From: a virus
Taxonomy: Duplodnaviria > Caudoviricetes
DNA: 59,808 nucleotides
Direction: 5' to 3' (one strand)
IMG/VR virus record: IMGVR_UViG_3300033150_001833
Coordinates: 1 to 59,808 of that record
Positions 21,984-35,155 of the stretch are shown piece after piece. The translations under genes were made by a program, and so were the position numbers. The notes beneath the pieces were generated by a model that searched no databases, had not been told where the DNA came from, and worked only from the letters and a program-made list of their open reading frames with translations. Numbering within the stretch: position 1 is the first letter of the stretch; every line of letters begins with the position of its first letter.

Positions 21984-21994
21984 AATGCTTCAAC

Positions 21995-23178: not shown

Positions 23179-23200
23179 AAATTTCTCCTTTCTTCTTTAA

Positions 23201-23449
23201 TTAGCGAACTCCTTCTTCACTATACCATTTCACAAATGTATCTAAGTCCAATCCTTCAACCTCAATCTCCCCAACATCAACAAGCAATGTTGCTGTTGCC
23301 CACTCACCTTTCATTAAATTGATTTTGACTCCCCGCACTACATTCGAGATATCTATGCCAGTCTCCATATGCTCAACTTTTACATGATCTGATATTGCCA
23401 CAAACGGGTGGCTATCAGCAGCCGGCTTCAGTGTTATCTTCAATCCCAT
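23201..23449 (-). CDS. Hypothetical protein (directly after the last attC-like core site)
   Basis: GTTAGTT-AAGGAGG-ATG. Confidence 0.65.
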   Translation of the reverse strand: MGLKITLKPAADSHPFVAISDHVKVEHMETGIDISNVVRGVKINLMKGEWATATLLVDVGEIEVEGLDLDTFVKWYSEEGVR

Positions 23450-23462
23450 ACAACCTCCTTAC

Positions 23463-23495
23463 AACTAACGAGAAAATTACTCGCTCTTTTTAGTC
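23463..23495 (-). other. attC-like right arm only
   Basis: AAAAAGAGCGAGTAATTTTCTCGTTAGTT. Confidence 0.45.
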
Positions 23496-23634
23496 ATGTG
23501 AATTTCATAAATGACGGTTCTTCCAACCTTCATGCTCCAAAACTCTGTGATGTTGAATGAAAAAGTTTCATTATCTTAGCTTTGGCCTTATAGTATAGGT
23601 TTTCCCTATATTACATATAGGGGATGTCTGATTA

Positions 23635-24168
23635 CTAAGGAAATATTCGAATATCCTCATTAGATTTCCTCTTTTTTAATTGATAATTTAGCTGTCGTTT
23701 AATAACATGCAATGGCCAAAAAGGTTTACCACATTCGTCGCAGCTTATCGAAGCCAACAATCCCGAATGCGCGACACCACAATGGGGACATACTATCGCT
23801 CCATGTGGAAGAATAGCCTGGTATGATTGTTCAGGTGATTGTTTTGATATTTCTGTTTTATCATCACCATTTTCGGTCCCGCTTGATGCACCATCTTTAT
23901 AGGCACGCAACAGAGGTTCGGCTGTTTGAAAACTGTTAATCGCTCGAATATTATAAAGACCATATTTCACGCAATACCGCTCGCCAGGACCAACATATTC
24001 GCCGCATTCCGAACATGGCCCACCTTCAGCCTCAATTTTGAACTCAAGAAGCTCGTGCCAAATAGCACAAGCATCGCATGGATTATCATTCAGTCCCCTG
24101 CCTCCGCATGAACAATAATTATTGATAATGTTCATTAGCTGGTCTTCGCTTATTATTATCTTATACAT
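23635..24168 (-). CDS. Cassette gene: multi-zinc-ribbon hypothetical protein
   Basis: Several CxxC pairs; SD AGGAGG. Confidence 0.6.
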   Translation of the reverse strand: MYKIIISEDQLMNIINNYCSCGGRGLNDNPCDACAIWHELLEFKIEAEGGPCSECGEYVGPGERYCVKYGLYNIRAINSFQTAEPLLRAYKDGASSGTENGDDKTEISKQSPEQSYQAILPHGAIVCPHCGVAHSGLLASISCDECGKPFWPLHVIKRQLNYQLKKRKSNEDIRIFP

Positions 24169-24175
24169 TTATACC

Positions 24176-24235
24176 TCCTATCGTTTTTAGTTGGTCTGCA
24201 CTACTTTTTGGCGTTAGAGTCCAACGTTGTTGCCA
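24176..24235 (-). other. attC-like site (degenerate)
   Basis: GGCAAC AACGTTGGACTCTAACGCC AAAAAG TAGTGCAGACCAACTAAAAAC GATAGGA; same family as 24986 and 27766. Confidence 0.6.
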
Positions 24236-24449
24236 CAAACCATTCACGCCACACTTCAGTTATCTGCCAGAACATAGCTCTAATATTTGTAAATATCATG
24301 CGAGCATTCTTACGTTTGTAATGTTTTACAGCCGACATAAAAAAAGCCAGCGCACCATTGATGTGAAACCACACCAGGAAGTATTTAGCTTTAGGATTTC
24401 TCGACATTTTCCTAAACACAAGATAATATGTTTTAGTGATAAGATTCAT
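24201..24449 (-). CDS. Cassette gene, hypothetical
   Basis: ATG lies within the upstream core site; C-terminus reads into the attC. Confidence 0.5.
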   Translation of the reverse strand: MNLITKTYYLVFRKMSRNPKAKYFLVWFHINGALAFFMSAVKHYKRKNARMIFTNIRAMFWQITEVWREWFVATTLDSNAKK

Positions 24450-24541
24450 AATGTCTGAACTCACCAGTGGGCAGGAAACTCAAAATGTCGATTTACTCCG
24501 ATAGCCGACCCTGCCCATCTGCGTGCAGCGCCTGGTTATCA
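24446..24541 (-). other. attC site
   Basis: GATAAC CAGGC GCT[G]CAC[G]CAG[A]TGGGCAGG ... CCTGCCCACTGGTGAGT TCAGAC ATTATGA; three extrahelical bases. Confidence 0.85.
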
Positions 24542-24740
24542 AAATATCGTTTTTCAGTTTTCTATTTTGCAATTTTCAATGTCTGATATGGTCCTATGCC
24601 AATGTCGGAATCATAATACATCGGATAAATATACCATCCGTCTGATTCTCGGCATATCCCGCCATATTTCAGATGCGTATACCATCCAGATTCTTCTTTT
24701 CTCCATTCAAAATGACTGCCACTCATAATCTAAATTCCTT

Positions 24741-24798
24741 TTATAACCACATTAGTTTAGCAGGCGGCTATTCGCTCCGCTGGAACGCTTTGTTATGC
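24741..24798 (-). other. attC site
   Basis: GCATAAC AAAGC GTT[C]CAGCGG[A]GCG..CGCCTGCTAAAC..GTTATAA. Confidence 0.8.
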
Positions 24799-24985
24799 TA
24801 TCCTCTCAATCGCCTTAGCTAACGGCAACCATTTCGATACACGTCCCCCACATTTGGCGCATATATATCCGTGATCGTCTGTATACACTTTTCCATATTT
24901 TTTACATGCGGGGTTGTCCAGGTTGCAATACCTGCCTCCAGGCTTCTCAAATTTTATTTTGTTTTTTTTTCATTTTTTCCTCAAA

Positions 24986-25046
24986 GCATAAAACTTAGCT
25001 GACCTGCGGCTGCTTTTTACCATCAGAGTCGAGCAACTGGTTGTGC
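24986..25046 (-). other. attC site
   Basis: GCACAAC CAGTT GCT[C]GAC[T]CTG[A]TGGT AAAAAGCA GCCGCAGGTCAGC TAAGT TTTATGC. Confidence 0.8.
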
Positions 25047-25255
25047 TGTATATGTATATTATCTTCCAAATCCAAGCCACATTTCTTGCAGGAATTGTCA
25101 ATTCCATTATTTACATAGTAATGGGCAAAGGTTTTTTCGAGCAAGCTTATCCTTTTCTCGTTTTTTGTTGGTGTGTCAGGATAGCAAACATGACAAGAAA
25201 CTTTATATTCTGTCCCGCATTTTTTACATATTACACCCATAATTACTCCTTTCAC
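24995..25255 (-). CDS. Cassette gene, Cys-rich hypothetical
   Basis: C-terminus NQLLDSDGKKQPQVS is translated attC. Confidence 0.6.
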   Translation of the reverse strand: MKGVIMGVICKKCGTEYKVSCHVCYPDTPTKNEKRISLLEKTFAHYYVNNGIDNSCKKCGLDLEDNIHIQHNQLLDSDGKKQPQVS

Positions 25256-25274
25256 TCGTCGGCCGCCACATTGT

Positions 25275-25478
25275 TTATAAAAGTTTAAGCTCGTTCGGCC
25301 ATACTAGGCATTTATGATTCCCCATATTATATCTTACATCTGGCTTTATATCAGTGTAAATAATATATGCAGCTACATGCTTACTATCTATTGATGATTT
25401 TATTATTTTTTCTACTGTAGCATTACCCAAATAATCATGGACAACCCTATCACCAATTTTAAACTTTTCCGCTTTTTT
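25275..25478 (-). CDS. Hypothetical SH3/KOW-like small protein
   Basis: FKIGDRVVH..LG...V motif. Confidence 0.5.
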   Translation of the reverse strand, partial: KKAEKFKIGDRVVHDYLGNATVEKIIKSSIDSKHVAAYIIYTDIKPDVRYNMGNHKCLVWPNELKLL

Positions 25479-25722
25479 CATTTTTTTCTTTAAGTTTAGC
25501 AATTACAAGGCCAACGGCATAATCATTAACCCATCTGGGGTCATCCATGAATGCCATGACTGTCGCTCGGTCACGATTAAGATCATACAAAATCCCCTCG
25601 GCAGGTTGTTTTATAAACTCCTCTATGTCTGCCTCTTTTGGTCCGTCCAATGTCATAAAAACAATTTTACCTTCTTTTTCTTTTTGAAGGACCAACTCTT
25701 TTAATTTCTCTTTATCAGTCAT
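25459..25722 (-). CDS. Hypothetical protein
   Basis: ORF in array. Confidence 0.6.
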   Translation of the reverse strand: MTDKEKLKELVLQKEKEGKIVFMTLDGPKEADIEEFIKQPAEGILYDLNRDRATVMAFMDDPRWVNDYAVGLVIAKLKEKNEKSGKV

Positions 25723-25893
25723 GGTTCATCCCCTTATCGCTATCAATTTAACTGAAGAAATATCCTTCACTTTACATGTACAGCTTTGTTGTTTTAAAGA
25801 ATAAGCGTCTTCCGCTTGGTTCCATGCCCATGATTGGGCAGGTGGAATCTTAGCTCTTTTACAATATTTCATTTTCCATCGCCATTTGTACAT

Positions 25894-25952
25894 ATTTACC
25901 CCTCTAATCAGCCGCCGTGCTCTTTTCGGTCAGCTGCATTGCTTGATTATGC
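25894..25952 (-). other. attC site (core degenerate)
   Basis: GCATAAT CAAGC AAT[G]CAGCTG[A]CCG..CGGCGGCTGATT AGAGG GGTAAAT. Confidence 0.75.
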
Positions 25953-26134
25953 TTTTTAGCAGAAAACCTATGAATATAAGTATCGCCTCCAGTATATGTT
26001 ATCCTACAATCTTCTCTTCGATCTCTGTGCATTGCCCTATGACGTGTAATTCCAAGATAGTGAAAACTTTTTTTACAGGTATGGCAATAACAATTTTTAA
26101 ACCTCGTCACTTTCATTTTACCCTTTTGAAGCAT
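25904..26134 (-). CDS. Cassette gene, C2H2-like zinc finger
   Basis: CHTCKKSFHYLGITRHRAMH. Confidence 0.6.
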   Translation of the reverse strand: MLQKGKMKVTRFKNCYCHTCKKSFHYLGITRHRAMHRDRREDCRITYTGGDTYIHRFSAKKHNQAMQLTEKSTAAD

Positions 26135-26185
26135 AACAGATTAAGTCAGCAACGTTTTTCAATCTGCCAGGACAACTGATTATCT
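26131..26185 (-). other. attC-like site (degenerate)
   Basis: AGATAAT CAGTT...CGTTGCTGACT TAATCT GTTATGC. Confidence 0.6.
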
Positions 26186-26421
26186 GTCTCATCTTTCACC
26201 AATTCTGGTTTACCGATAAAAAGTGCTGCACTTCTAAAAGCATCAAAACATTGATCATGTACGCCGTCTTCGTCATTGGCCCAAATAATGATTCCTTTCA
26301 ATAATGCTTCAATATGGTTTTTAGCTTCTTGTTCCACATTGTAGTGTGGACAGTTAGGGTGATGTTGTGTAAGTAACAACACATTATCACGTGCCCAATT
26401 TTTACATTCGCAATCTATCAT
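26146..26421 (-). CDS. Cassette gene, hypothetical
   Basis: SD AAGGAG after core site. Confidence 0.6.
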   Translation of the reverse strand: MIDCECKNWARDNVLLLTQHHPNCPHYNVEQEAKNHIEALLKGIIIWANDEDGVHDQCFDAFRSAALFIGKPELVKDETDNQLSWQIEKRC

Positions 26422-26434
26422 ATTGCTCCTTCCC

Positions 26435-26556
26435 CGATAACGATTGAATTAAGCGATACGCCCACAAATCGGGGATACCAAATCATAGCCAAGCGGATCG
26501 GGCTTCATGTCTTTGCAGCACGGATTTCTCACATCTGCTTTAACGGGTTGGTATCG
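26435..26556 (-). other. Long attC-like site (degenerate)
   Basis: Right arm CGTATCGCTTAATTCAATCGTTATCG; left CGATAC..GTTAAAGCAGATG. Confidence 0.5.
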
Positions 26557-26685
26557 CCAACCCGTTTGTGTTTGATACCAATCACACATTCTTGTGTTCC
26601 CATAACAGCGCATGCAAAACTTAGAGTCTATGCCATTGCATATTGGACAACCCTTTTTCCTTTTGTCTTCTGATAATGATTTCAT
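26449..26685 (-). CDS. Cassette gene, Cys-rich
   Basis: CPIC..CMRC; reads through the attC. Confidence 0.5.
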   Translation of the reverse strand: MKSLSEDKRKKGCPICNGIDSKFCMRCYGNTRMCDWYQTQTGWRYQPVKADVRNPCCKDMKPDPLGYDLVSPICGRIA

Positions 26686-26908
26686 TTTTTACCTGTTTGT
26701 TTTTTTTGTTATACTGTTTTTATATTTTTAAAACTTCTCGCATAAGGCCATGTTTTTCACATATTTCTCGGCACCTTAAAAAATGAGTGGTTAAGTCCAT
26801 CATTTCTGTAGCACGGCCGCCTGTAATTTCTTTTGATGTTTTTATTAACATCGCAAGCGTTTCAACAAAATCCTTATTATGCACTTTTTTGCCAGCTATT
26901 AATGCTCC

Positions 26909-26955
26909 TTCCAACGGCTCTTTATAATCCCGTCCACTGAACACAGGGGTTATCC
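26909..26955 (-). other. attC-like site with internal deletion
   Basis: GGATAAC CCCTG TGTTCAGTGGACGGG..AGAGCC GTTGGAA. Confidence 0.6.
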
Positions 26956-27131
26956 GATGTTCTTTGTTGCCAAAGACGGTTAGCTTCCATGCCGTCTTTT
27001 GATATTGGCCCTTGCGCGCCGCATGAAACACATTTTATTGCTTTCCACGGTTTGCCTTTTGTTGTTGATAAAAGTGTTAGTTTCAGATTCTCGGTTTCTC
27101 CGCAAAAAGGACATTTTACCAAATGATCCAC
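26922..27131 (-). CDS. Lar-family restriction alleviation-like protein
   Basis: CPFCG...CVSCGAQGP...A...WQQR. Confidence 0.7.
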   Translation of the reverse strand: MDHLVKCPFCGETENLKLTLLSTTKGKPWKAIKCVSCGAQGPISKDGMEANRLWQQRTSDNPCVQWTGL

Positions 27132-27148
27132 TTTTTATTTCCTCCAGG

Positions 27149-27207
27149 ATATAATATACTTAGATTAGCCGCCCATTCTTTGAGTCAGATAGATTTACTT
27201 GTTAGTT
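27149..27207 (-). other. attC site (degenerate)
   Basis: AACTAAC AAGTA AAT[C]TATCTG[A]CTCA..TGGGCGGCTAATC..ATTATAT. Confidence 0.65.
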
Positions 27208-27342
27208 TTTTTGCTTCTTTATAATCATGCCGTACGTGCCTTTTTGATCTTCTATATATTTTCTTTGGCGATGAGAATAATCCCCGTAAATCATTTTTCT
27301 TATTTTTTTTGATTTCTTGCCATTCATCTTTGTCTCCTTAAA

Positions 27343-27393
27343 AACTAACGTTTAATTAAGCAGCTTTTGTCTGCCTGAATTTCTTGGTTATGT
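27343..27393 (-). other. attC site (short)
   Basis: ACATAAC CAAGA AATT[C]AGGCAG[A]C AAAA GCTGCTTAATT AAAC GTTAGTT. Confidence 0.75.
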
Positions 27394-27395
27394 GT

Positions 27396-27469
27396 CGCCC
27401 CCACTCTGGAATCAAACCAGTAGGCTGAAGACTAGGACAGCCAGCCCGCCCATCAGGGATCAGGAGGGC
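27396..27469 (-). ncRNA. tRNA-like element as sole cargo of a mini-cassette
   Basis: GCCCTC..GGGGGC acceptor-like stem, CTGG-TTTGATT-CCAG T-arm, GGCTG..CAGCC central arm. Confidence 0.45.
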
Positions 27470-27529
27470 ACATAACACTAAACTGAGCCGCCGAAGTTTT
27501 TATTGATCGCCCCCAGTGACTTGTTGGAA
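27470..27529 (-). other. attC site
   Basis: TTCCAAC AAGTC ACTGGGGGCGATC..CGGCGGCTCAGT TTAGT GTTATGT. Confidence 0.7.
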
Positions 27530-27754
27530 GGAAATTTTTGGTATATTAATTTCCTTTATAGTTTTTTTTGCTAAATCGATTTCATAAAGATGACCAACAT
27601 AACTTTCTGGCTCAAAATTAGAAACCGACTGTTCTCTTTCCCAAAGTAAAATTGCTGCCTGTTTTGGCGATGAAACAACTTTTTGAGTTACTGGCATATT
27701 TTTTATGCCAGTAAAATAATGAGACATTAAAATAATAAATAATAGTATTTTCAT
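27500..27754 (-). CDS. Cassette gene with N-terminal hydrophobic segment
   Basis: Bounded by 15-bp inverted cassette ends. Confidence 0.6.
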   Translation of the reverse strand: MKILLFIILMSHYFTGIKNMPVTQKVVSSPKQAAILLWEREQSVSNFEPESYVGHLYEIDLAKKTIKEINIPKISFQQVTGGDQ

Positions 27755-27765
27755 AACAAATTTCC

Positions 27766-27826
27766 TTCCAACAATTTAGCTGACCGATGCTACTTTTTGG
27801 TGTCAGAATCTAGCAGCTTGTTATCT
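27766..27826 (-). other. attC site
   Basis: AGATAAC AAGCT GCTAGATTCTGACACC AAAAAG TAGCATCGGTCAGC TAAATT GTTGGAA. Confidence 0.75.
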
Positions 27827-27981
27827 GTCTTCGGTATTTTTACTGTGGGCATAGGAATTCGTGGACATTTAATAGCTGGTTCCTTGTAATTACATCCCCA
27901 TCGAACACAATGAGAAGAGCCAAAAATGTCAGCAGTGTCAAAATATAGCCGATGCCCAAAAATTTTACATAATATATTCAC
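27790..27981 (-). CDS. Cassette gene, DUF1660-like (LCKIFGH...CxR)
   Basis: N-terminal LCKIFGHR motif typical of small prophage proteins. Confidence 0.5.
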   Translation of the reverse strand: MNILCKIFGHRLYFDTADIFGSSHCVRWGCNYKEPAIKCPRIPMPTVKIPKTDNKLLDSDTKK

Positions 27982-27989
27982 AACAAACT

Positions 27990-28043
27990 CCTTTATGTAT
28001 GAATCAGCGTTGAGTGTTCATCCGCCGGACCGGCTTGTTAAGT
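27990..28043 (-). other. attC-like site (degenerate)
   Basis: ACTTAAC AAGCC GGT[C]CGGCGG[A]TG..CAACGCTGATT. Confidence 0.6.
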
Positions 28044-28282
28044 GTTTTATAATTATTAAGTAAAACTGTTGAACATTTTGTGCCACGTTGAACACTCGAT
28101 TGCACGGTAACACCCTCAACAGCTAAATCCCTATCTCGAATAGAGGCTAAAATATGCTCTAATGTCGCGGATATTATTAAGGTTCCGTCATTATGGACAA
28201 GTTCCGCATAGATGGTATTTGGTCTCAGCTGACCATGTTCGTTTCCATCCATTCTAATATTTTGTAAATGATATATTTCCAT
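28004..28282 (-). CDS. Hypothetical protein
   Basis: ORF in array. Confidence 0.6.
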   Translation of the reverse strand: MEIYHLQNIRMDGNEHGQLRPNTIYAELVHNDGTLIISATLEHILASIRDRDLAVEGVTVQSSVQRGTKCSTVLLNNYKTLNKPVRRMNTQR

Positions 28283-28604
28283 TTTTTTCTTCTTTCTTTG
28301 ATTCCGGTGCTATGATTTTAGAATAACGAATATAATTCTCATCAATATTCACTTCCACTATTATAAAACCTGGAATAGTAGTTTGAATTATTTTTTTTAT
28401 CATAGCAGTCTTATCAGTTGACTTTGATCCACTTATTGAGACTGTAATAGTTTTTTCCCAAATATCTTGATTGATAATCATAAATTTTGCTTCTATATAA
28501 TTCAATAGATCCTGAACATCTTTGTTTGGCATGTCCAATTTGGGATTTATTTCTTTTATGTATTCAAAAAAATCACGCCTGTCTTCTTCTGTTAAAAAAT
28601 TCAT
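28254..28604 (-). CDS. Hypothetical protein
   Basis: SD upstream. Confidence 0.6.
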   Translation of the reverse strand: MNFLTEEDRRDFFEYIKEINPKLDMPNKDVQDLLNYIEAKFMIINQDIWEKTITVSISGSKSTDKTAMIKKIIQTTIPGFIIVEVNIDENYIRYSKIIAPESKKEEKNGNISFTKY

Positions 28605-28626
28605 ATTTCCCCCTTTTCCGCTATCC

Positions 28627-28686
28627 CGACAACATGGAAATCAGCAATCTTCTATCTTTGGTTTTGGCAGATTTCCAACATTATCT
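28627..28686 (-). other. attC-like site (degenerate)
   Basis: AGATAAT..GGAAATCTGC...TTGCTGATTTCC AT GTTGTCG. Confidence 0.5.
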
Positions 28687-28919
28687 AATTCGGCGGCCAG
28701 CTTATGAAAATAAATTGCACACATATCACCGTAATCATCAACAGGACTGCCGTCCTCGTCAAGAATATTACTAAATTCTTCCGGGTTTTCGGAGTATCTC
28801 CTTGCCCATTCGTTAAAAATAATAGCCATTCTTTTGTGAGTAATGCTTGTTGTTGGTGGTGCCTTTGGCGCATCGGGCTTTACCGCGTTTGCTGGTCTTA
28901 CATTACTTGCTTTTTTCAT
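28641..28919 (-). CDS. Cassette gene, hypothetical
   Basis: GTTGGAGG core/SD then ATG. Confidence 0.6.
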   Translation of the reverse strand: MKKASNVRPANAVKPDAPKAPPTTSITHKRMAIIFNEWARRYSENPEEFSNILDEDGSPVDDYGDMCAIYFHKLAAELDNVGNLPKPKIEDC

Positions 28920-28937
28920 AGTGATTACCTCCAACGA

Positions 28938-29147
28938 TTATTTATTATTAGATTCCCAGTGAGTCACTTCAACATAAGCCTCGTCATGTGTATCAATATC
29001 CCACATAGGCTTTCCAATTACATCATTCATCCCTAAAAACTCCGCTTCAATTTCTTCTGTAGAAGAAACACTTCCAAACCGCCAATAATTTACACGGCAC
29101 CGTGTTTTTTGACCAACGCTGGGCAACTTTTCTTCAACTGAAATCAT
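28938..29147 (-). CDS. DUF551-like phage protein
   Basis: ISVEEKLP...VTHW signature. Confidence 0.65.
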   Translation of the reverse strand: MISVEEKLPSVGQKTRCRVNYWRFGSVSSTEEIEAEFLGMNDVIGKPMWDIDTHDEAYVEVTHWESNNK

Positions 29148-29177
29148 AATATATCCCTCCGATATTTACCTTTTTTG

Positions 29178-29387
29178 TTATATTTTATCCCAAAGCTCAT
29201 CAGGCAGTCATATATTATTGTCTTTTTTTTCAAAAGCGCTCCCAGCAGTAAAAACAAGCTCAATTTCCTGATCTTCAATAGACCTTAGAAAGGCTATAGT
29301 TTTATATCCTTCTTCTTGCGCTTCAATTTCTCCAGGTAAAATATTTCTATATCGTTCAATTAGATTATCTTTCATTTTTACTTTCAT
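29178..29387 (-). pseudogene. Hypothetical gene with in-frame TGA at 29208-29210
   Basis: 59 codons, TGA, then LPDELWDKI and a TAA that overlaps an attC left-end remnant. Confidence 0.5.
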
Positions 29388-29414
29388 ACTACCCTCTCTT
29401 CAGAATGTAACAGT

Positions 29415-29576
29415 TTAATCTCCTTAAGACGGCGCCCAGGTCTTTAACCTGGAACGGATAGATATCTTTTCGTTTCCACTTTTATTGCGCCGTAAAAGTT
29501 TACGTGTCATTATATCTTTCCGTCGTATGCTTTTTGGCGGCGCCACCTCACATACACGCCGGCTTAAGAAGACTAA
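29415..29576 (-). ncRNA. Putative structured four-way-junction RNA (non-coding cassette)
   Basis: 20-bp closing stem plus three internal arms. Confidence 0.5.
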
Positions 29577-29595
29577 CGTAGAGTTGGAGCTGTAA

Positions 29596-29628
29596 GCATA
29601 ACGAATCAGCTGAAACGGTTTGTTATAA
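29596..29628 (-). other. Collapsed attC
   Basis: TTATAAC AAACC GTTTCAGCTGATTC GTTATGC. Confidence 0.6.
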
Positions 29629-29817
29629 ACCCTCATAACGCCAAGGATTCTGTAAACAAATTTGCCACCGACCACCGTTTTTAATTATATTTAACGCTGC
29701 TTCTTTAGTTTTTGGATTGTGCTTCAATCCTTTAACACTATCAAATCTGTCCAATTTACAATTTATGCCCCTATTAGTATTTATTGGGCCAGAACAAAAT
29801 TTCTTACAAGGTATCAT
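29623..29817 (-). CDS. Cassette gene, hypothetical
   Basis: Flanked by GTTATAAACCC / GGGTTTATAAC. Confidence 0.6.
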   Translation of the reverse strand: MIPCKKFCSGPINTNRGINCKLDRFDSVKGLKHNPKTKEAALNIIKNGGRWQICLQNPWRYEGL

Positions 29818-29834
29818 AATAGCCCCCTTTGGGT

Positions 29835-29914
29835 TTATAACGTTAAACTGACTTGATCATTTGCAATTTCCGAATTATAATATGCTTGTTATGTGCAAAT
29901 GTAATTTGTTATGC
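29835..29914 (-). other. attC-like site
   Basis: GCATAAC...TCAAGTCAGT TTAAC GTTATAA. Confidence 0.55.
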
Positions 29915-30043
29915 GGTGTTGACCCTGGATCATATTTTTTATTCAACGTTTTCGTGCTGTAGGTAGCATTGACATTATAATGAATGCTCTTACCGATATT
30001 TTCATATCAGACCTTCACACTTCCAGCGATTTCAAAGAAAGCC

Positions 30044-30090
30044 GCATAACGTTTGCCTTCACCTGACCAGACCGAAAAACTTTGTTATCC
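30044..30090 (-). other. attC-like site (right arm clear)
   Basis: GGTCAGGTGAAGGCAAAC GTTATGC. Confidence 0.55.
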
Positions 30091-30111
30091 ACCTGTTAAT
30101 TTACTGCTGCA

Positions 30112-30522
30112 TCATATCCCCCTGTATAAATTAACAGAGTCTTCTAAGAACAATCGAACCAGTCGGTGTTTCGTCCCCTGCGGAAGAGTTGTCTTTATTG
30201 CGGAAAAAATTTTATTTGCATCTTCATTGTACAGGGTTTGTGCTTCTTCCAAAGTGTCCGTTTGTGGTAAGTCTGTGTTTATTTCAATCACTATCCCATT
30301 GATAGATTCCTCTTTTCTTATCGGGTCTGCTTTATGTACAATAATTGTATGGTTCATAATTCCTCCGTAAAATAACAATTTTACCTTTTCCCAGTCAGTA
30401 CACGTCTCAGTATCCTCATGCACATCTTTTTTGTGCAGTTCACACCATTTCCATTCACCCAACGGGTCGAGTTCGTGGTGTCTATCGCTGCAATGTTTAC
30501 AATTATTGCAAAACTCTTTCAT
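30112..30522 (-). CDS. Hypothetical protein (probably two fused ORFs; internal SD GGAGG-ATG at ~30357)
   Basis: Cys-rich N-terminal half, internal RBS. Confidence 0.5.
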   Translation of the reverse strand: MKEFCNNCKHCSDRHHELDPLGEWKWCELHKKDVHEDTETCTDWEKVKLLFYGGIMNHTIIVHKADPIRKEESINGIVIEINTDLPQTDTLEEAQTLYNEDANKIFSAIKTTLPQGTKHRLVRLFLEDSVNLYRGI

Positions 30523-30523
30523 G

Positions 30524-30566
30524 TCATAACCGCCCGCATCACAGGCTTATCCTATGTGTGTTGCTA
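30524..30566 (-). other. attC-like site
   Basis: TAGCAAC...GCCTGTGATGC GGGCG GTTATGA. Confidence 0.55.
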
Positions 30567-30749
30567 CTGCCTGATCTGTAATTTAAAATTTTGCGCCGGC
30601 ATCCTAAAAAGATTTTCAAACATACCTTGATTTTCAACATCTTTGGGCCATTTCTGAAAATATACCTGTCCTTTTTTGATCATATGTACATGAATAGCTA
30701 TGCTGTTTCTCTCAATTACCATTCCTGGTTTTATATTAATCATTTTCAT
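30564..30749 (-). CDS. Cassette gene, hypothetical
   Basis: Lies between attC sites. Confidence 0.55.
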   Translation of the reverse strand: MKMINIKPGMVIERNSIAIHVHMIKKGQVYFQKWPKDVENQGMFENLFRMPAQNFKLQIRQ

Positions 30750-31132
30750 TGTAGGCCCCTAACGTCTGGACTCACGGGCGGTGGTCTTTTGCCATCCCCT
30801 GGCTTGTTATGTATTTTGCGTAGCATTAATTCAAGCCTCGATAACGCATTCCATGCTAAGTGCGCTTGATGCAATAACCCAGAATCTTTGTCTTGATCCT
30901 CATGGCGTTCAGCGAGAAGATGACGCCAGAGTGCGTCTGTGTATCGAATAAAGCCATTCTCTACGCTTTGCCACCCGCCACGAGAGTATTTAATTGCTCC
31001 AAAAGTCCCTACTTTGGCAACCTCCGTTAAGGCTAAAGAAAAATCAGAAAGAACACCTGCAAGGACTTTACCAGCATCCAGCTTTGCGCCTTGTTCGTGT
31101 TGATTTAAACCATTTGGATCTTGTTCATGCAT
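30746..31132 (-). CDS. dATP/dGTP diphosphohydrolase-like (DUF5664) protein
   Basis: GAKLDAGK...VAKVGTFGAIKYSRGGW...RYTDALWRHL...DSGLLHQAHLAWNAL. Confidence 0.85.
   Translation of the reverse strand: MHEQDPNGLNQHEQGAKLDAGKVLAGVLSDFSLALTEVAKVGTFGAIKYSRGGWQSVENGFIRYTDALWRHLLAERHEDQDKDSGLLHQAHLAWNALSRLELMLRKIHNKPGDGKRPPPVSPDVRGLQ
30757..30812 (-). other. attC site (left arm partly deleted)
   Basis: ACATAAC AAGCC..GATGGC AAAAG ACCACCGCCCGTGAGT CCAGAC GTTAGGG. Confidence 0.7.
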
Positions 31133-31146
31133 ATTGTTCCTTTATG

Positions 31147-31207
31147 GTATAACGGTTAAGCTGACTTGCCGCTGCTTTTTGTCGTCAAGTCCAGCGGCTT
31201 GTTAGCT
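31147..31207 (-). other. attC site (intact)
   Basis: AGCTAAC AAGCC GCT[G]GACTTG[A]CG..CGGCAAGTCAGC TTAACC GTTATAC. Confidence 0.9.
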
Positions 31208-31359
31208 GCTTTAACCAATGTTTGCATATCTTGCTCAATATCTCTTAAGGCAAATACAATTGCAATCCAACCGCAAACAAGCCTTAAAGCCGGGCCATCA
31301 AACTCAAACTTCCATCCGCCATATTTCCCGACACAAAAATAAAAAGTAAACCCATTCAT
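31156..31359 (-). CDS. Cassette gene, hypothetical
   Basis: Cassette ends GTTAGCTG/CAGCTAAC. Confidence 0.6.
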   Translation of the reverse strand: MNGFTFYFCVGKYGGWKFEFDGPALRLVCGWIAIVFALRDIEQDMQTLVKAANKPLDLTTKSSGKSA

Positions 31360-31376
31360 TTTTTATCCTTTCAGCC

Positions 31377-31512
31377 AGCTAACGTCCTAATAACCTGCAT
31401 GTAGGGCTTGCACACCCCTTAAAAGAGCACTCCCACCCATCTTCCCCTGGCAATTATCGACTCTTACCGACAAGCCGACCCTACGCGTCAGAGTTTGTTT
31501 GATTGATTATAC
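31377..31512 (-). other. Long attC site (136 bp)
   Basis: AAC[A]AAC[T]CTG[A]CGCGTAGGG ... CCCTACATGCAGGTTATT AGGAC GTTAGCT. Confidence 0.8.
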
Positions 31513-31732
31513 GTTTCTGCTTCATCAACCCCCGGATCATCTTCTTGACATCATCCATACAGTCTATGTTGAACACACAGCGAGACGATGGCCAAAAGCA
31601 GTATTGACGCCATGCTCCATACCACTTGATTTGCCCAAGCACGAGACCGGAAGACTTCGATAAAATATTCCATATTTCGGTTTTGCCGGTTTCTCCAACT
31701 TTATCAAATTCCATGTAACGGCTTTCAATCAT
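31481..31732 (-). CDS. Cassette gene, conserved small phage protein
   Basis: LGQIKWYGAWRQYCF...FNxDCM motif; SD AAGGAGG. Confidence 0.65.
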   Translation of the reverse strand: MIESRYMEFDKVGETGKTEIWNILSKSSGLVLGQIKWYGAWRQYCFWPSSRCVFNIDCMDDVKKMIRGLMKQKRIINQTNSDA

Positions 31733-31747
31733 GTTCCCTCCTTAGAA

Positions 31748-31836
31748 ATATAACGTCCTAATAACTTGCATGTAGGGCTTGCACACCCCTTAAAAGAGCC
31801 CTCCCACCCGTCATCCCCTGGCAATTATCGACTCTT
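31748..31836 (-). other. Second copy of long attC (right arm + loop)
   Basis: Near-identical to 31380-31465. Confidence 0.8.
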
Positions 31837-31990
31837 CCTCAACCTGAACGGTCACGGAAATCGTCAGAGTGTGTGTTTGTGTGCACACTGGACACTTCAC
31901 ATGTTTAATTACTTCCAAACCGAAGCAGGGCTTAATTTCGACTTCAAAACCCTGCATGCATCTGCCGCATGGGATGATTATTTTATACAC
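31811..31990 (-). CDS. 59-aa zinc-ribbon protein (not in ORF track)
   Basis: SD GGAGG, GTG start; MYKIIIPCGRC...CPVC; ends inside the attC loop. Confidence 0.6.
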   Translation of the reverse strand: MYKIIIPCGRCMQGFEVEIKPCFGLEVIKHVKCPVCTQTHTLTISVTVQVEEESIIARG

Positions 31991-32051
31991 CTACGCCTCC
32001 ATTTGTTCACGAATTTTGGGATGAGCAACTTTTAAGTGTCAAGTTAAGTAC

Positions 32052-32216
32052 CTAATTACCCTCTATATTGTTATACAAACATATTGCCAAACAAAACCAA
32101 AGTACAACAACAAACCAATCACAAACAGCACTTAAATCTTTTTCAAGCAAATTTATAACAAGATTAGTAAGAGTTATAAATACACATAAAATAATTGCAG
32201 ATATATATATATTCAT
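32052..32216 (-). CDS. 54-aa two-TM membrane protein (not in ORF track)
   Basis: MNIYISAIILCVFITL...WFVVVLWFCLAICLY. Confidence 0.5.
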   Translation of the reverse strand: MNIYISAIILCVFITLTNLVINLLEKDLSAVCDWFVVVLWFCLAICLYNNIEGN

Positions 32217-32288
32217 ATTTTTAAACTTCTCTGTAAAAAGTTGTGCAGTAGCTGCCTTAAACTCCGTTGTAAGGATTTATTAGCATTC

Positions 32289-32912
32289 CTACCTAAAATC
32301 TTTTGCTTTGATTTTGGCAATGACCCGTTCTCCTCTTCGATTAAACAATTCAACTTTTGGACGCATAACAAGCCCTTCAGGTAACATTTTTCGTAACTTC
32401 GATTCGTACCCACCTTTGACCATTGCAACACCTTCAAGCAACGTGCCCTCACCAATAACGGGTACTGTCTTAATCATAAGCTTCTCACCGATATCCTTAA
32501 CGTTGTGATGTTCAAGCCACATACCATTAATATTCACATCGAAAAGGATAAAACTAACGCCGTTTGAAATGTAATTGCCACCACCTTTTTGGATTTTGGC
32601 TCCATAACCTTCACCATACAAACATAATGGAGGCAACTCATTAGTTATGAAGATTTCAGGATAAAAAAGTGCAGCAAGTTTATCAAGGAGGAATTTTGGA
32701 ATATCTGCCCGGTCTGTTTTCCCGGCGAAAGTAACGTGTTCACCGTTCCACTTCACACGGATATTCGTGCCATCTACTTTCTCGGTAAATATCCATATAT
32801 TATTCTTGAGATAGTCGAACTCAGGCTTTGCAAATTGACCTTCCAGTAATGTTTTATGCTTCGTCGCAGGATCACGTAAATATACTGTTTGAATTTTATG
32901 ATACTCTTTCAT
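32289..32912 (-). CDS. RNA ligase family nucleotidyltransferase
   Basis: YHKIQT, motif I EKVDGTN, LYGE, FILFDV, EGLV, IAKIK. Confidence 0.85.
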   Translation of the reverse strand: MKEYHKIQTVYLRDPATKHKTLLEGQFAKPEFDYLKNNIWIFTEKVDGTNIRVKWNGEHVTFAGKTDRADIPKFLLDKLAALFYPEIFITNELPPLCLYGEGYGAKIQKGGGNYISNGVSFILFDVNINGMWLEHHNVKDIGEKLMIKTVPVIGEGTLLEGVAMVKGGYESKLRKMLPEGLVMRPKVELFNRRGERVIAKIKAKDFR

Positions 32913-32941
32913 TTTGTAATTTCTCCATTTGTCAACCACAA

Positions 32942-33412
32942 TTATTTATACAGTATCTCGGTCATTTCTTCATCTGCTGATTTTTTTATCTTTTCCACTC
33001 TTTCCTTTAACAACATCTTGGTTTTTTGTTGTTCTTTTTCATAAATTTCAGCAATTATTTCTTCCTCTGCTAATTTTTCTATCTTTTCCACTCTCGCCTT
33101 TAACATTCCTTCTAATAAAATTAGATAATTGATAGAATAGCCGATCTTTTTGTCAATCATTGCGTCTGTTAACTTCTCAGGCGAACGATCTGACATTTCA
33201 ACTAAATCTAACACTGAAACAATATGTTCTACCCACATACCGACCAGGGCTTTTTCTGGTGTCGTGTCTAATATTCTCGCCGCAATGTTAAAATTATGGT
33301 ATCTATCACAACCCATCGCATATTCTTTAGCCTTTTCTGATAATACAGACCGGATTGATTCTATTCGGTCATCCACTATTTCATCAAACTGTGTATCGTA
33401 TTTCATAAACAC
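32942..33412 (-). CDS. DUF1599/Nmad1-like nucleotide-modification-associated protein
   Basis: KAKEYA..DRYHNF...KIGYSINYLILLE; duplicated C-terminal helix. Confidence 0.65.
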   Translation of the reverse strand: MFMKYDTQFDEIVDDRIESIRSVLSEKAKEYAMGCDRYHNFNIAARILDTTPEKALVGMWVEHIVSVLDLVEMSDRSPEKLTDAMIDKKIGYSINYLILLEGMLKARVEKIEKLAEEEIIAEIYEKEQQKTKMLLKERVEKIKKSADEEMTEILYK

Positions 33413-33413
33413 C

Positions 33414-33489
33414 TCCTAACGCAAAGTTCACTTATCGGAAAGCCGACAAGGATAGTTTTTTGCCGTCAGAGTCGAGCGACTGATTATGC
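33414..33489 (-). other. attC site with mismatched arms
   Basis: Left GCTCGACTCTGACGGC; right ATAAGTGAACTTTGC GTTAGGA. Confidence 0.7.
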
Positions 33490-33668
33490 TGTTCCAATAC
33501 CTTGATTCGCTTCTGTAGCAACATGTTTTCAGCTTCGAGATTGTTTATTTTAGCTTGTTGTTCATGCCGCTCATTTATTTCCATCTGTCGAGAAATCCAT
33601 TCACATTCTTTAGGATTAAAACAATCTCTACCAATTACACCTCCACAACTGTTACATATCATAATCAT
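33432..33668 (-). CDS. Cassette gene, Zn-ribbon + coiled coil
   Basis: SD AAGGAG; CNSCGG..DCF...C. Confidence 0.6.
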   Translation of the reverse strand: MIMICNSCGGVIGRDCFNPKECEWISRQMEINERHEQQAKINNLEAENMLLQKRIKVLEQHNQSLDSDGKKLSLSAFR

Positions 33669-33687
33669 TTCTCCTTTCCCCAAAAAG

Positions 33688-33742
33688 ACATAATATCTAA
33701 GCTGAACCACCGGTATCAGTCGGCTCAAGCGGCTGGTTAGAT
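33688..33742 (-). other. attC site
   Basis: ATCTAAC CAGCC GCT[T]GAGCCG[A]CTG ATAC CGGTGGTTCAGC TTAGAT ATTATGT. Confidence 0.85.
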
Positions 33743-33937
33743 TTCATCCCCATAATCCTGCATATCACGTTCCCGTTCGGCTAATATGCATTGACTCACA
33801 TGATAGGAATTATGAAGCTCCGCAAGTAGCCAATCGGGGGTATATTTAGGATTCACCCTCTTAAGAATTCTTTCAATACTATCTACAACAGATTTTGCCT
33901 GAGTCCGATGATACTTTCTTGCTGACTTTGCTCCCAA
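33737..33937 (-). CDS. Cassette gene, hypothetical
   Basis: SD AAGGAGG; stop is the TAA of the attC left end. Confidence 0.65.
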   Translation of the reverse strand: MGAKSARKYHRTQAKSVVDSIERILKRVNPKYTPDWLLAELHNSYHVSQCILAERERDMQDYGDEI

Positions 33938-33954
33938 AATAACCTCCTTTAAAA

Positions 33955-34014
33955 ATCTAACGTCTTAGCTGACCTGCGGCGACTTTTGGCGTCCGCTCAA
34001 GCGGCTGGTTATAT
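33955..34014 (-). other. attC site (chimeric arms)
   Basis: ATATAAC CAGCC GCTTGAGCGGACGCC AAAAGT CGCCGCAGGTCAGC TAAGAC GTTAGAT. Confidence 0.85.
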
Positions 34015-34545
34015 AGGTAAGTTCACTGTTGATTTAACTTCATTACCCCAAACATCCCAGCCATCTCGCACTTGCCGTGCAAAGATATCGGCTCTATTCT
34101 CAGCTAAAGATTTTATCATCTCATAAAATTTATTTGGTTTTTGGGAATGCTTAATATTTGGTGCTGAAAAAGCTAAAGGGATTAACGGTCGTTTTGGCCA
34201 TAAATCAGGTTTTTCCTTATATCCAACCAATATGAATTCAACATTCCATCTAAAACCAAACAATGGCATCCCTGCAGATTTACCATAAGTTTTTTTCCAT
34301 ACACCTGTAACAAGGTGACTAAACCCCCATGTCTCTAATACCTCTTTAGCATCAAAGAGATGCTTTTGGGTAGCCCACAAGAATAACCAACAATTGTCAT
34401 CTGCAATACTATCTATAGGCAATGATTTGATTTGTTCTATGCTCATAGTTTTGTAATCCATTGTCACCTGTTTTGGCCGTACCTTGCGTGTAAGCTTCTT
34501 TACTGGCCAGGGAGGATCAACAACAATTAATCCATATTTTTTCAT
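34009..34545 (-). CDS. MT-A70 family adenine methyltransferase (cassette gene)
   Basis: IVVDPPW, YKTMS, LFLWAT, HSQKP, DIFAR, GWDVWGNE. Confidence 0.9.
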   Translation of the reverse strand: MKKYGLIVVDPPWPVKKLTRKVRPKQVTMDYKTMSIEQIKSLPIDSIADDNCWLFLWATQKHLFDAKEVLETWGFSHLVTGVWKKTYGKSAGMPLFGFRWNVEFILVGYKEKPDLWPKRPLIPLAFSAPNIKHSQKPNKFYEMIKSLAENRADIFARQVRDGWDVWGNEVKSTVNLPI

Positions 34546-34567
34546 AAGGTCTCCTATACGAAATGCC

Positions 34568-34625
34568 ATATAACATTTAGTTTAACAGGCAAGCTTTTCC
34601 GCTCTGCTGCAATGACTGGTTATAT
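34568..34625 (-). other. attC site
   Basis: ATATAAC CAGTC ATT[G]CAGCAG[A]GCG..TGCCTGTTAAAC TAAAT GTTATAT. Confidence 0.85.
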
Positions 34626-34684
34626 TTTTCCACTTCAAAATAGCTCTGCAATAGTTGCACACTTTATCCCCTCTACGTTTAGAT

Positions 34685-34743
34685 GAATAATATAAAGCTA
34701 ACTTGTGCTGTCTTTTGGCGTCAAGTTGAGCGACTTGTTAGCA
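34685..34743 (-). other. attC site
   Basis: TGCTAAC AAGTC GCT[C]AACTTG[A]CGCC AAAAGAC AGCACAAGTTAGC TTTAT ATTATTC. Confidence 0.85.
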
Positions 34744-34955
34744 ATTTTTGTGAGATCATCTAACACAGATAAATCATTATTTAGAAAGCGCGTGATTATG
34801 GTGGCAGGATCAATAGTACAACTATGTACTAATTTATCGCTATTGCAATAAGGACAACTTGTCTTATGATCAAAATACGAAGCATGCCATTTTTTACAAG
34901 AACGGCAGCAATAGACAAAGGTTACGTGCATACTATAGTTATATTTCAATTTCAT
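34698..34955 (-). CDS. Cassette gene, zinc ribbon
   Basis: CRSC..CPYC; ends NKSLNLTPKDSTS (translated attC). Confidence 0.65.
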   Translation of the reverse strand: MKLKYNYSMHVTFVYCCRSCKKWHASYFDHKTSCPYCNSDKLVHSCTIDPATIITRFLNNDLSVLDDLTKIANKSLNLTPKDSTS

Positions 34956-35019
34956 CCTAATAATCCTTTATGGTTATATTAATGATTTGGAAAACTTGAA
35001 AACTTCCACAACACCTCCT

Positions 35020-35135
35020 CCAATAAGGTTTGCACACCCCTCAGAAAGGCACTCCCACCTGTCTTCCCCTGGCAATTACTGGACCCTACCGACAGCCCAA
35101 CCCTATACAGTATTCTTTGATTTTAATTATAATTT
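35020..35135 (-). other. Degenerate third copy of long attC
   Basis: Similar to 31404-31484. Confidence 0.6.
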
Positions 35136-35155
35136 CTCCAAAAAATTAAACTCCT

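What the first reader, a model, noticed from the sequence alone, without database searches (positions are those of the whole stretch)
23463..35135. Phage-borne integron cassette array: ~30 attC-like sites organise the accessory genes
Seen: most intergenic gaps in this 11.7 kb contain an element reading (minus strand) RYYYAAC-5nt-left arm-loop-right arm-5/6nt-GTTRRRY. In the best-preserved sites the left arm carries 2-3 unpaired extra bases (24446-24541, 31147-31207, 33688-33742, 34568-34625, 34685-34743). Sites are mostly 50-136 bp, diverse in sequence and co-oriented with the genes. Each core site is usually followed directly by an SD and a single small ORF. Established: this is the architecture of integron attC sites and cassettes, normally found on chromosomes and plasmids. 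Inference: the cargo is phage-type (DUF551, Lar, DUF5664, RNA ligase) and lies inside the replication operon, so this is probably not a captured host array. It may be a phage that shuffles its accessory genes as cassettes, using a host IntI in trans or its own recombinase.
Basis: partly seen in the sequence, partly recalled or inferred. Interest (0 to 1): 0.95.

Follow-up and report, generated by a model that had tools for sequence, protein, structure and literature searches.

The report
Integron-type cassette array inside a phage
An uncultured marine phage carries, between two replication genes, an island of small genes many of which are followed by integron-type recombination sites, a kind of array already reported in a few phages but here unusually long.

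Summary
The repeats are real and they are attC-type sites, but there are about half as many as claimed. A covariance model (CM) built only from 7 class 1 integron attC sites of an E. coli P1 phage hits the window 8 times at E<=1. Seven of those hits lie on the minus strand inside 23.4-35.1 kb. A broader model gives 13 of 14 there. It gives 0 hits in 340 kb and 1 in 81 kb of control phage DNA. Six window sites score at or above the three attC sites of phage TJE1, two of which IntI1 recombined in published tests (PMC9892861). In all I count 14 distinct sites, up to 18 with weak ones. Only 11 of 18 keep both the AAC and GTT triplets, and the hairpins are weak.

Two relatives at about 70% protein identity have the primase-polymerase gene next to the UvrD-type helicase gene. 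The window has a 13.4 kb island between them. Marine metagenome contigs about 90% identical carry the same genes in another order, and 6 of 10 well-supported joint ends fall in model-supported sites.

No integron integrase is present; the phage's own recombinase is Xer-like. Phage attC clusters are already published, so this is a large new member of a known kind.

The parts
21984..35402 (-). Accessory island of about 45 small minus-strand ORFs, inserted between the primase-polymerase gene and the UvrD-type helicase gene
   Evidence: In relatives L009 and L091 the two flanking genes are adjacent: they overlap in L009 and are about 195 nt apart in L091.
33955..34014 (-). Best attC-type site. The TAA stop of the MT-A70 gene lies in its 5' core.
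   Evidence: R1 32.5 bits, E 4e-6. R2 52.9 bits. Loops (5,6),(1,0).. as in aadA2. A metagenome joint ends at G 33961 of its 3' core.
31147..31207 (-). attC-type site after ORF 31156-31359, which reads through it
   Evidence: R1 23.5 bits, R2 38.4 bits. It passes the strict scan. A joint ends at 31146, one base after its 3' core.
34696..34743 (-). attC-type site with a degenerate 3' core (no GTT)
   Evidence: R1 23.8 bits. nhmmer family member.
34568..34625 (-). attC-type site whose two cores are perfectly complementary; it precedes the MT-A70 cassette
   Evidence: R1 17.9 bits, E 0.033. Fold.
33688..33742 (-). attC-type site. The TAA stop of the 66-aa ORF lies in its 5' core; the 3' core reads ATT instead of GTT.
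   Evidence: R2 21.1 bits. Loops (5,6),(1,0),(1,0).
33414..33489 (-). Weak, decayed attC-type site (AAT in the 5' core)
   Evidence: R2 12.0 bits, E 1.8. nhmmer E 4e-13 to the repeat family.
30757..30812 (-). attC-type site within the 3' end of the PF18909 gene
   Evidence: R2 18.3 bits. R1 9.3 bits.
30044..30090 (-). Short attC-type site in a 294-nt gap
   Evidence: R2 14.4 bits and R1 12.4 bits.
29571..29628 (-). attC-type site. The TAA stop of ORF 29623-29817 lies in its 5' core.
   Evidence: R2 23.3 bits and R1 15.8 bits. Passes the strict scan.
27766..27826 (-). attC-type site after the DUF1660 ORF
   Evidence: R2 13.9 bits and R1 11.4 bits. nhmmer 3e-14.
27470..27529 (-). attC-type site after ORF 27500-27754
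   Evidence: R2 18.0 bits. Passes the strict scan.
27343..27393 (-). attC-type site closing a 127-nt ORF-less unit
   Evidence: R2 15.0 bits. Fold.
25890..25952 (-). Decayed attC-type site (AAT, no 3' core)
   Evidence: R1 11.3 bits and R2 14.3 bits.
24986..25046 (-). attC-type site; two single-base bulges on the left arm; 3' core lacks G
   Evidence: R2 22.4 bits. nhmmer 2e-15. Fold.
24741..24798 (-). attC-type site after ORF 24819-24950
   Evidence: R1 22.5 bits and R2 19.1 bits. Passes the strict scan.
24446..24541 (-). Long, weak attC-like hairpin (3' core ATT)
   Evidence: R2 12.1 bits, E 1.8. Fold -15.9 kcal/mol.
24184..24240 (-). Decayed member of the repeat family, with no cores left
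   Evidence: nhmmer 7.5e-10 only. Not hit by R1 or R2.
34009..34569 (-). MT-A70 DNA methyltransferase cassette between two model-supported sites
   Evidence: Pfam PF05063, 99.6 bits. A 34% identical homolog in L022 ends at an R1 hit.
26922..27131 (-). Lar restriction-alleviation homolog
   Evidence: PF14354, 29.4 bits, cut-off 28.6.
30746..31132 (-). dATP/dGTP diphosphohydrolase N-terminal domain gene (PF18909)
   Evidence: 77.8 bits. None of the 28 homolog loci in other viral contigs has an R2 hit.
32289..32939 (-). RNA ligase gene, in a 2.3 kb stretch without model hits
   Evidence: PF09414, 63 bits.
31370..31490 (-). One of three copies of a second, G-rich repeat of about 90 nt (others at 31740-31860 and 34990-35110). 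Two copies end in a GTTA box before a Shine-Dalgarno sequence.
   Evidence: 82% mean column identity. No Rfam match. Not hit by R1 or R2. Weak folds.
41492..42463 (-). Xer-like tyrosine recombinase, not an integron integrase
   Evidence: TIGR02249 gives 42 bits against a cut-off of 265, N-terminal half only; the best family is XerA at 109 bits. It lacks the insertions shared by three IntI proteins.
35403..37136 (-). Primase-polymerase gene, the conserved flank upstream of the island
   Evidence: PHROG 2478. 72% and 69% identity to L009 and L091.
19963..21983 (-). UvrD-type helicase gene, the conserved flank downstream of the island, interrupted after its P-loop start
   Evidence: Pfam. tblastn to L009 and L091. 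Sequence read.

Best explanation
The region is a cluster of integron attC sites that lacks an integron integrase (a CALIN). It lies inside a 13.4 kb accessory-gene island of an uncultured marine phage.

About 14 sites, or up to 18 with decayed ones, are true homologs of attC recombination sites. All are co-oriented with the genes. Several bound single-ORF units of 250-700 bp, including an MT-A70 methyltransferase. Other anti-restriction-type cargo in the island (Lar) lies in stretches without detected sites.

Inferred mechanism: cassettes entered, and can still be reshuffled, through a host integron integrase acting in trans on the folded single-stranded sites. The crossover falls at G/TT of the 3' core, either between two attC sites or at secondary sites. 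Many sites have since decayed: the core triplets are lost and the hairpins are weak. Part of the array is therefore frozen, and part of the shuffling seen may be ordinary homologous recombination between the repeats.

Shown: site identity, array layout, the insertion relative to kin, absence of an integrase, and rearrangements ending at sites.
Inferred: which enzyme acts, and whether the array is active today.
For: - R1 was trained only on 7 class 1 attC sites. It gives 7 of 8 hits at E<=1 on one strand of the region. Its window scores of 15.8-32.5 bits exceed those for Vibrio and Shewanella attC sites, which are at most 22.5 bits.
- R2 gives 13 of 14 hits in the region. It gives 0 hits in 340,353 bases of 30 control loci with default filters and 1 hit at E<=1 in 81,452 bases with filters off.
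- R2 scores the three TJE1 attC sites at 20.3-22.5 bits. Two of them were recombined by IntI1 according to PMC9892861. Six window sites score 21.1-52.9 bits.
- A 22-letter pattern taken from three window sites finds IMG/VR loci with co-oriented R1 arrays. A longer pattern finds bacterial loci with co-oriented R1 arrays.
- The folds show the attC plan of 5 and 5-7 nt spacers and left-arm single-base bulges. Four ORFs stop at the TAA inside the 5' core.
- The island is absent from two relatives.
- Of 5 joints with a side of 31 letters or more in contigs about 90% identical, 6 of 10 ends lie in model-supported sites. One is exactly at G of the 3' core of the best site (33961) and one is a base after the 3' core of the second best (31146). 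Two more ends lie in attC-like boxes that the models do not support.
- IntI-mediated insertion of cassettes outside att sites is published (10.1101/2022.09.11.507474; abstract read).
Against: - No integron integrase is present in the 78% of the genome that is held, and no host is known.
- Only 11 of 18 sites keep both AAC and GTT.
- Constrained folding energies are mostly -2.4 to -8.6 kcal/mol, against -9.1 to -18.7 for ten bona fide sites.
- Three stretches of 1.5-2.3 kb hold 4-7 tightly packed ORFs with no detected site.
- One joint lies inside ORFs. Two joints lie in the 5' core or the arm rather than at G/TT, and they may come from likeness between repeats.
- The listed loose ends and cut-off contig pieces mostly stop near gene boundaries, including boundaries without a site.
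- The contigs are short, come from unnamed organisms, and were laid at 85% likeness.
- Covariation within the window set does not exceed the shuffles.
- R2 is not fully independent of the window, because a window-derived pattern fetched part of its training loci.
Confidence: 0.65

Rival explanations
1. Relic of a single capture. A piece of a bacterial integron array, or a few cassettes, was picked up once by illegitimate recombination. It is now a decaying, inert part of an ordinary phage accessory region, and the shuffling among relatives is ordinary phage mosaicism.
For: - 7 of 18 sites have lost a core triplet and the hairpins are weak.
- Long stretches have no site.
- Many contig ends lie at gene boundaries without sites.
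- No integrase is present.
- The whole island is one insertion relative to two relatives.
Against: - Cargo with a Pfam match is phage-type. The G+C content of the island (0.36-0.43) equals that of the flanks.
- The two best-preserved sites are the ones where joints end at the 3' core.
- Six sites score at or above the three TJE1 attC sites, two of which were tested and recombined by IntI1.
Confidence: 0.22
2. Phage-own intergenic stem-loop repeats that drive module exchange by homologous recombination, as PeSL elements do in T4-type phages, and that resemble attC only by convergence.
For: - The repeats form a sequence family: 8 members at nhmmer E<=2e-8.
- Two joints cross within the shared 5' part of two repeats.
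- A second repeat with 3 copies also sits between genes.
Against: - A model trained only on bacterial class 1 attC sites finds them.
- Patterns taken from them retrieve attC arrays in bacterial genomes of several phyla.
- Promoter-like and terminator-like sites are at chance level: 53 against 43.9 +/- 6.1, and 8 against 9.1 +/- 3.1. The defining promoter-plus-terminator make-up of PeSL is therefore absent.
Confidence: 0.08
3. The conserved sequence is a shared C-terminal peptide tail, because six ORFs read through the repeat in the same frame, with AAC read as Asn.
For: 6 of 8 family members are read in one frame and give similar tails.
Against: - The same DNA consensus (TAAC, AAG, then the arm) is the consensus of 44 attC sites from unrelated loci (alignment lines).
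- Two family members end the ORF at the TAA in the 5' core instead.
- All three frames meet a stop within the element.
- 6 of 8 in one frame is only weakly unusual.
Confidence: 0.03

Closest known systems
[quoted passage not shown] 2023, PMC9892861), for example Tetrasphaera phage TJE1
   Same: - Co-oriented attC sites after single ORFs in a phage, with no integron integrase.
- A DNA methyltransferase among the cargo.
- R2 finds the three TJE1 sites at 20-22.5 bits, a range that 6 window sites reach or exceed.
   Different: - 14-18 sites over 10.6 kb, against 3 sites and 4 ORFs in TJE1 (paper, Figure 2 legend).
- Many sites are decayed.
- Comparative evidence shows an insertion and rearrangement.
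- The paper's Supplementary Table S1, which lists all 17 clusters, could not be seen, so I cannot say that none is as long.
Sedentary chromosomal integron arrays (Vibrio, Shewanella) and class 1 mobile integron arrays
   Same: Site plan, orientation, cassette size, a stop codon in the 5' core, and a short leader with a Shine-Dalgarno sequence after the 3' core.
   Different: - No intI, and no recognised attI or Pc.
- Weaker hairpins.
- The sites are neither uniform as in chromosomal arrays nor all intact.
- The cargo is phage-type.
PeSL promoter-stem-loop cassettes of T4-type phages (PMC2839356 and PMC4122927; search listing and abstract starts only)
   Same: Repeated intergenic elements flank small variable genes in a hyperplastic region and mark exchange points.
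   Different: The PeSL make-up of promoter plus terminator is not found here. These elements match bacterial attC models.

Membership tests
Integron attC site | Match to an attC covariance model | tested here: met
   R1, built from 7 class 1 sites, gives 4 window hits at E<0.01 and 7 at E<=1, all on the minus strand in the region. IntegronFinder's own model could not be run.
Integron attC site | Inverted cores ending in AAC and starting with GTT | tested here: inconclusive
   11 of 18 sites keep both triplets and 7 do not. Full RYYYAAC and GTTRRRY words are not enriched.
Integron attC site | Imperfect inner inverted repeats separated from the cores by spacers of about 5 and 5-7 nt | tested here: met
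   Loops of (5,6), (5,7), (5,5) or (5,4) at 5 sites, as in aadA2 and cmlA1. The inner helix is 92% paired in the fitted alignment.
Integron attC site | Extrahelical bases on one arm (the 5' arm of the top strand) | tested here: inconclusive
   14 left-arm single-base bulges in 9 of 18 sites, against 6 right-arm-only loops. Bona fide sites give 13 against 1.
Integron attC site | Recombined by an integron integrase as folded single strand | not testable with these tools
   Needs the attC x attI conjugation assay.
[quoted passage not shown] | Two or more co-oriented attC sites within a few kb and no IntI nearby | tested here: met
   13 R2 hits on one strand. No IntI over the cut-off in the record. 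The label itself is IntegronFinder's, which was not run.
Complete integron | Integron integrase with its specific extra domain | tested here: not met
   TIGR02249 gives 42 bits against a cut-off of 265. The recombinase lacks the insertions shared by IntI1, Vibrio IntI and Shewanella IntI. 22% of the genome is not held.
Complete integron | attI site and Pc promoter at the head of the array | not tested
   No model for attI was available. Promoter-like sites are at chance level.
PeSL elements of T4-type phages | Early promoter joined to a terminator-like stem-loop | tested here: not met
   Promoter-like and terminator-like counts equal the shuffles.

The most novel reading that the evidence does not exclude
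A phage lineage keeps a working, integrase-less cassette platform for its counter-defence and other accessory genes. The cassettes are drawn from, and returned to, the same pool that host integrons use, through the host integrase in trans. It would be the phage-side mirror of chromosomal integrons that bank anti-phage defence cassettes.
Probability: 0.25. Interest if true: 0.8.

Novelty: new member of a known kind. Interest (0 to 1): 0.6.

Why it matters
Integron arrays in bacteria are now seen as banks of anti-phage defence cassettes (10.1101/2024.07.02.601686; abstract and passages read). Short attC clusters have been shown in a few phages.

A long array in a phage would suggest that phages draw on the integron cassette pool at scale rather than by accident. 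This one has methyltransferase and Lar-type cargo, is inserted between core replication genes, and has rearrangement joints at its best sites.

It also offers concrete sites and cassettes for a direct recombination test.

Tried and rejected
- Rfam gave no family at gathering level over the window or at E<=1 over 23.0-35.6 kb.
- Megablast of the region and tblastn of the terminase against cultured phages found no match.
- Strict word counts and a strict structural scan understate the sites.
- The SNF2 gene found no relative in viral contigs.
- The PF18909 gene found 28 loci, none with an R2 hit. This serves as a control, not as relatives of the array.
- The second repeat (3 copies) could not be shown to be an attC: R1 and R2 do not hit it and the 5' core is absent.
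- No attC-like site was seen at the primase-helicase junction of the relatives.
- Joints with a side of 25 letters or fewer were set aside as unreliable: 20067/21951, 22850/34617, 22930/35856, 28296/35129, 31764/36934 and 35147/37204. Two short skips inside genes, which do not change gene order, were not analysed further: 23871/23917 and 32626/32882.
- The two runs hold only 0.08 and 0.05 of the sampled words, so I draw no habitat claim beyond their labels.
- The pattern scan of bacterial genomes named no single host group: 9 loci in several phyla.
- Supplements of PMC9892861 were not seen.

Full report
WHAT THE WINDOW IS. The window is a 59.8 kb linear IMG/VR virus record, estimated 78% complete. 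Tail and other structural genes lie on the plus strand. A terminase, a sliding clamp, ParB and a sigma factor are also present. The replication module is on the minus strand. It holds an SNF2 helicase, a primase-polymerase at 35403-37136 and a UvrD-type helicase at 19963-21983. No cultured phage resembles it. G+C content is even across the region and its flanks, at 0.36-0.43.

THE OBSERVATION. Reading the minus strand shows repeated elements at the 3' ends of small ORFs. Each has a core ending in TAAC, a 5-nt spacer, an imperfect hairpin, a spacer and then GTTA/G. A Shine-Dalgarno sequence and the next start codon usually follow within 10-20 nt. Eight of the elements form a sequence family (nhmmer E 2e-15 to 2e-8).

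Full RYYYAAC and GTTRRRY words are not enriched. Looser boxes are enriched by strand and region. TAAC[AC]AG occurs 11 times on the minus strand in the region, 7 times in the remaining 48 kb, and 3 times on the plus strand in the region. CGTTA[GT] gives 19, 14 and 1.

INDEPENDENT MODEL TEST. I took 7 attC sites from the class 1 integrons of E. coli phage P1 record MH445380. From them I built covariance model R1, using only the 10 outer pairs.

Searched together with the window, R1 recovered its 7 training sites. It found Vibrio and Shewanella phage-borne attC sites at no more than 22.5 bits. It found nothing in 50 kb of P1 backbone. In the window it found seven sites at 11.3-32.5 bits, all on the minus strand inside the region. 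With filters off over the whole window, 8 hits have E<=1. Seven are in the region on the minus strand, and the four with E<0.01 are all there. The eighth is a 33-nt hit at 8322-8354.

BROADER MODEL AND CONTROLS. A 22-letter pattern taken from three window sites matched 41 IMG/VR loci. In many of them R1 finds co-oriented arrays: 8 hits in L036, 7 in L042, 5 in L019, and 4 each in L010 and L044. Forty-four R1 hits from these loci and the named phages gave model R2. R2 is not fully independent of the window, because a window-derived pattern fetched part of its training loci.

With filters off over the window, R2 gives 14 hits at E<=1. Thirteen are in the region on the minus strand. Nine have E<=0.1, all in the region.

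The controls were clean:
- 0 hits at E<=1 in 340,353 bases of 30 other phage loci, default filters.
- 1 hit at 14 bits in 81,452 bases, filters off.
- R2 finds the three attC sites of Tetrasphaera phage TJE1 at 20.3-22.5 bits. Qi et al. report that IntI1 recombined the two TJE1 sites they tested (PMC9892861, section 3.4 and Table 2). Six window sites score 21.1-52.9 bits.

A longer pattern spanning both halves of the site matched 9 bacterial or archaeal genome loci. They include Thiomicrorhabdus, Planctomycetaceae, Nitrospiraceae, Chromatiales and Thiodiazotropha. R1 finds co-oriented arrays in five of them. The window sites therefore belong to the general pool of attC sites of about 60 nt.

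STRUCTURE. With the cores constrained to pair, several window sites show the same loop plan as aadA2 and cmlA1. That plan is an unpaired spacer of 5 against 5-7 nt, followed by single-base bulges on the 5' arm.

Left-arm bulges dominate, 14 against 6 right-arm-only loops, but less cleanly than in bona fide sites, where the figures are 13 and 1. The hairpins are weak, mostly -2.4 to -8.6 kcal/mol with DNA parameters, against -9.1 to -18.7 for ten bona fide sites. Only 11 of 18 sites keep both AAC and GTT. A strict scan finds all 7 class 1 sites. With a looser energy threshold and a shorter length limit, it passes only 5 window sites. Many sites are therefore decayed.

Four ORFs stop at the TAA inside the 5' core. 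Others read through the site in the frame where AAC is Asn. The conserved tail that results is explained by the DNA consensus, which R2's consensus from unrelated loci shares.

MY COUNT. I count 14 distinct sites at E<=1 with either model, and up to 18 with weak ones, against 38 ORF junctions. This is not 'about 30' and not 'most gaps'. Three stretches of 1.5-2.3 kb hold 4-7 tightly packed ORFs with no site.

CARGO. The Pfam matches are:
- MT-A70, 99.6 bits
- RNA ligase, 63 bits
- PF18909, 77.8 bits
- Lar, 29.4 bits
- DUF1660, 22.8 bits
- DUF551, 19.7 bits, below its cut-off

Most ORFs have no family. About nine units are single ORFs bounded by sites on both sides.

COMPARISON WITH RELATIVES. 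Two relatives share the module at 66-78% protein identity: IMG/VR contig L009/L051 and metagenome contig L091. In both, the primase-polymerase gene is followed directly by the helicase gene. In the window these two genes are 13.4 kb apart. Neither relative has model hits there. The island is therefore an insertion in this lineage, or a loss in the other lineage.

Logan contigs of two marine metagenome runs were laid at 85% likeness or more. They hold pieces of the island at about 90-99% identity, but 82-95% of them run on into unlike sequence.

Five joints have a side of 31 letters or more and rearrange gene order:
- The unit with the 66-aa ORF begins exactly at G 33961 of the 3' core of the best site. 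In the other genome it follows a different element, at 27169.
- The PF18909 unit begins at 31146, one base after the 3' core of the second-best site. There it follows a GTTA box at 23469-23463. A third contig also breaks at that box, at 23464.
- Two joints cross within or beside the 5' parts of two sites (34733/27817 and 33487/34695).
- One joint lies inside two zinc-ribbon ORFs (26538/30388).

Six of the 10 joint ends are in model-supported sites, which cover about 8% of the region.

Caveats apply. The contigs are short and come from unnamed organisms. Likeness between repeats can create two of the joints. The listed loose ends and cut-off contig pieces mostly stop near gene boundaries, including boundaries without sites.

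RECOMBINASE. No integron integrase is present. The only tyrosine recombinase (41492-42463) scores 42 bits on TIGR02249, whose cut-off is 265, and it is closest to Xer families. It lacks the insertions shared by IntI1, Vibrio IntI and Shewanella IntI. Its ortholog, at 51% identity, sits in the relative that has no array. Five other array-bearing IMG/VR records also lack an integrase over the cut-off.

VERDICT. The sites are genuine attC-type sites forming a long, partly decayed CALIN in a phage accessory island.

The most likely mechanism is cassette traffic by a host integrase in trans, which is inferred. Homologous recombination between the repeats probably contributes. A one-off capture that is now inert is the main rival.

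The kind is already published (PMC9892861). The length of the array, the phage-type cargo and the comparative evidence are what this case adds. I could not see that paper's supplementary list, so I cannot claim a record size.

Noticed in passing
window 34990-35110, 31740-31860, 31370-31490 (minus strand): Three copies of a G-rich repeat of about 90 nt, with an invariant core of about 50 nt holding four G runs. Two copies end in a GTTA box just before a Shine-Dalgarno sequence. There is no Rfam match, it is not an attC by R1 or R2, and its function is unknown.
   Followed up: partly
window 19963-21983 (minus strand): The UvrD-type helicase gene is interrupted right after the start of its P-loop. 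The first 25 residues match the relatives, then unrelated sequence follows with a weak intein-splicing hit (22 bits, cut-off 35.8), and the rest of the helicase is in a separate overlapping ORF. A 43-residue likeness to the insert lies in the SNF2 gene region of L091 (1026-1154).
   Followed up: partly
window 8322-8354 (minus strand): A lone 33-nt hit of both attC models (15.5 and 16.3 bits) inside the 1361-aa ORF 4541-8626 (probably a tail gene; not annotated by any search), far from the array. Probably chance.
   Followed up: no
L036, L042, L019, L010, L044 (IMG/VR contigs): Unrelated viral contigs carry co-oriented arrays of 4-8 R1 hits and no integron integrase over the cut-off. One of them, the record of L044, has direct terminal repeats. 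Long attC clusters may be commoner in IMG/VR than the published screen of cultured phages suggests.
   Followed up: partly
window 41492-42463 and L009 15659-16537: The Xer-like recombinase and its ortholog both have Asp where the three integron integrases have His in the LLGH motif before the catalytic Tyr.
   Followed up: no
window 30746-31132: A PF18909 dATP/dGTP diphosphohydrolase N-terminal domain gene, a family linked to modified-base DNA pathways in phages (recalled). No partner genes of such a pathway were looked for.
   Followed up: no
L022 3053-3653: An MT-A70 homolog (34% identity to the window's) ends at an R1 attC hit in an unrelated viral contig, so methyltransferase cassettes recur in such arrays.
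   Followed up: partly
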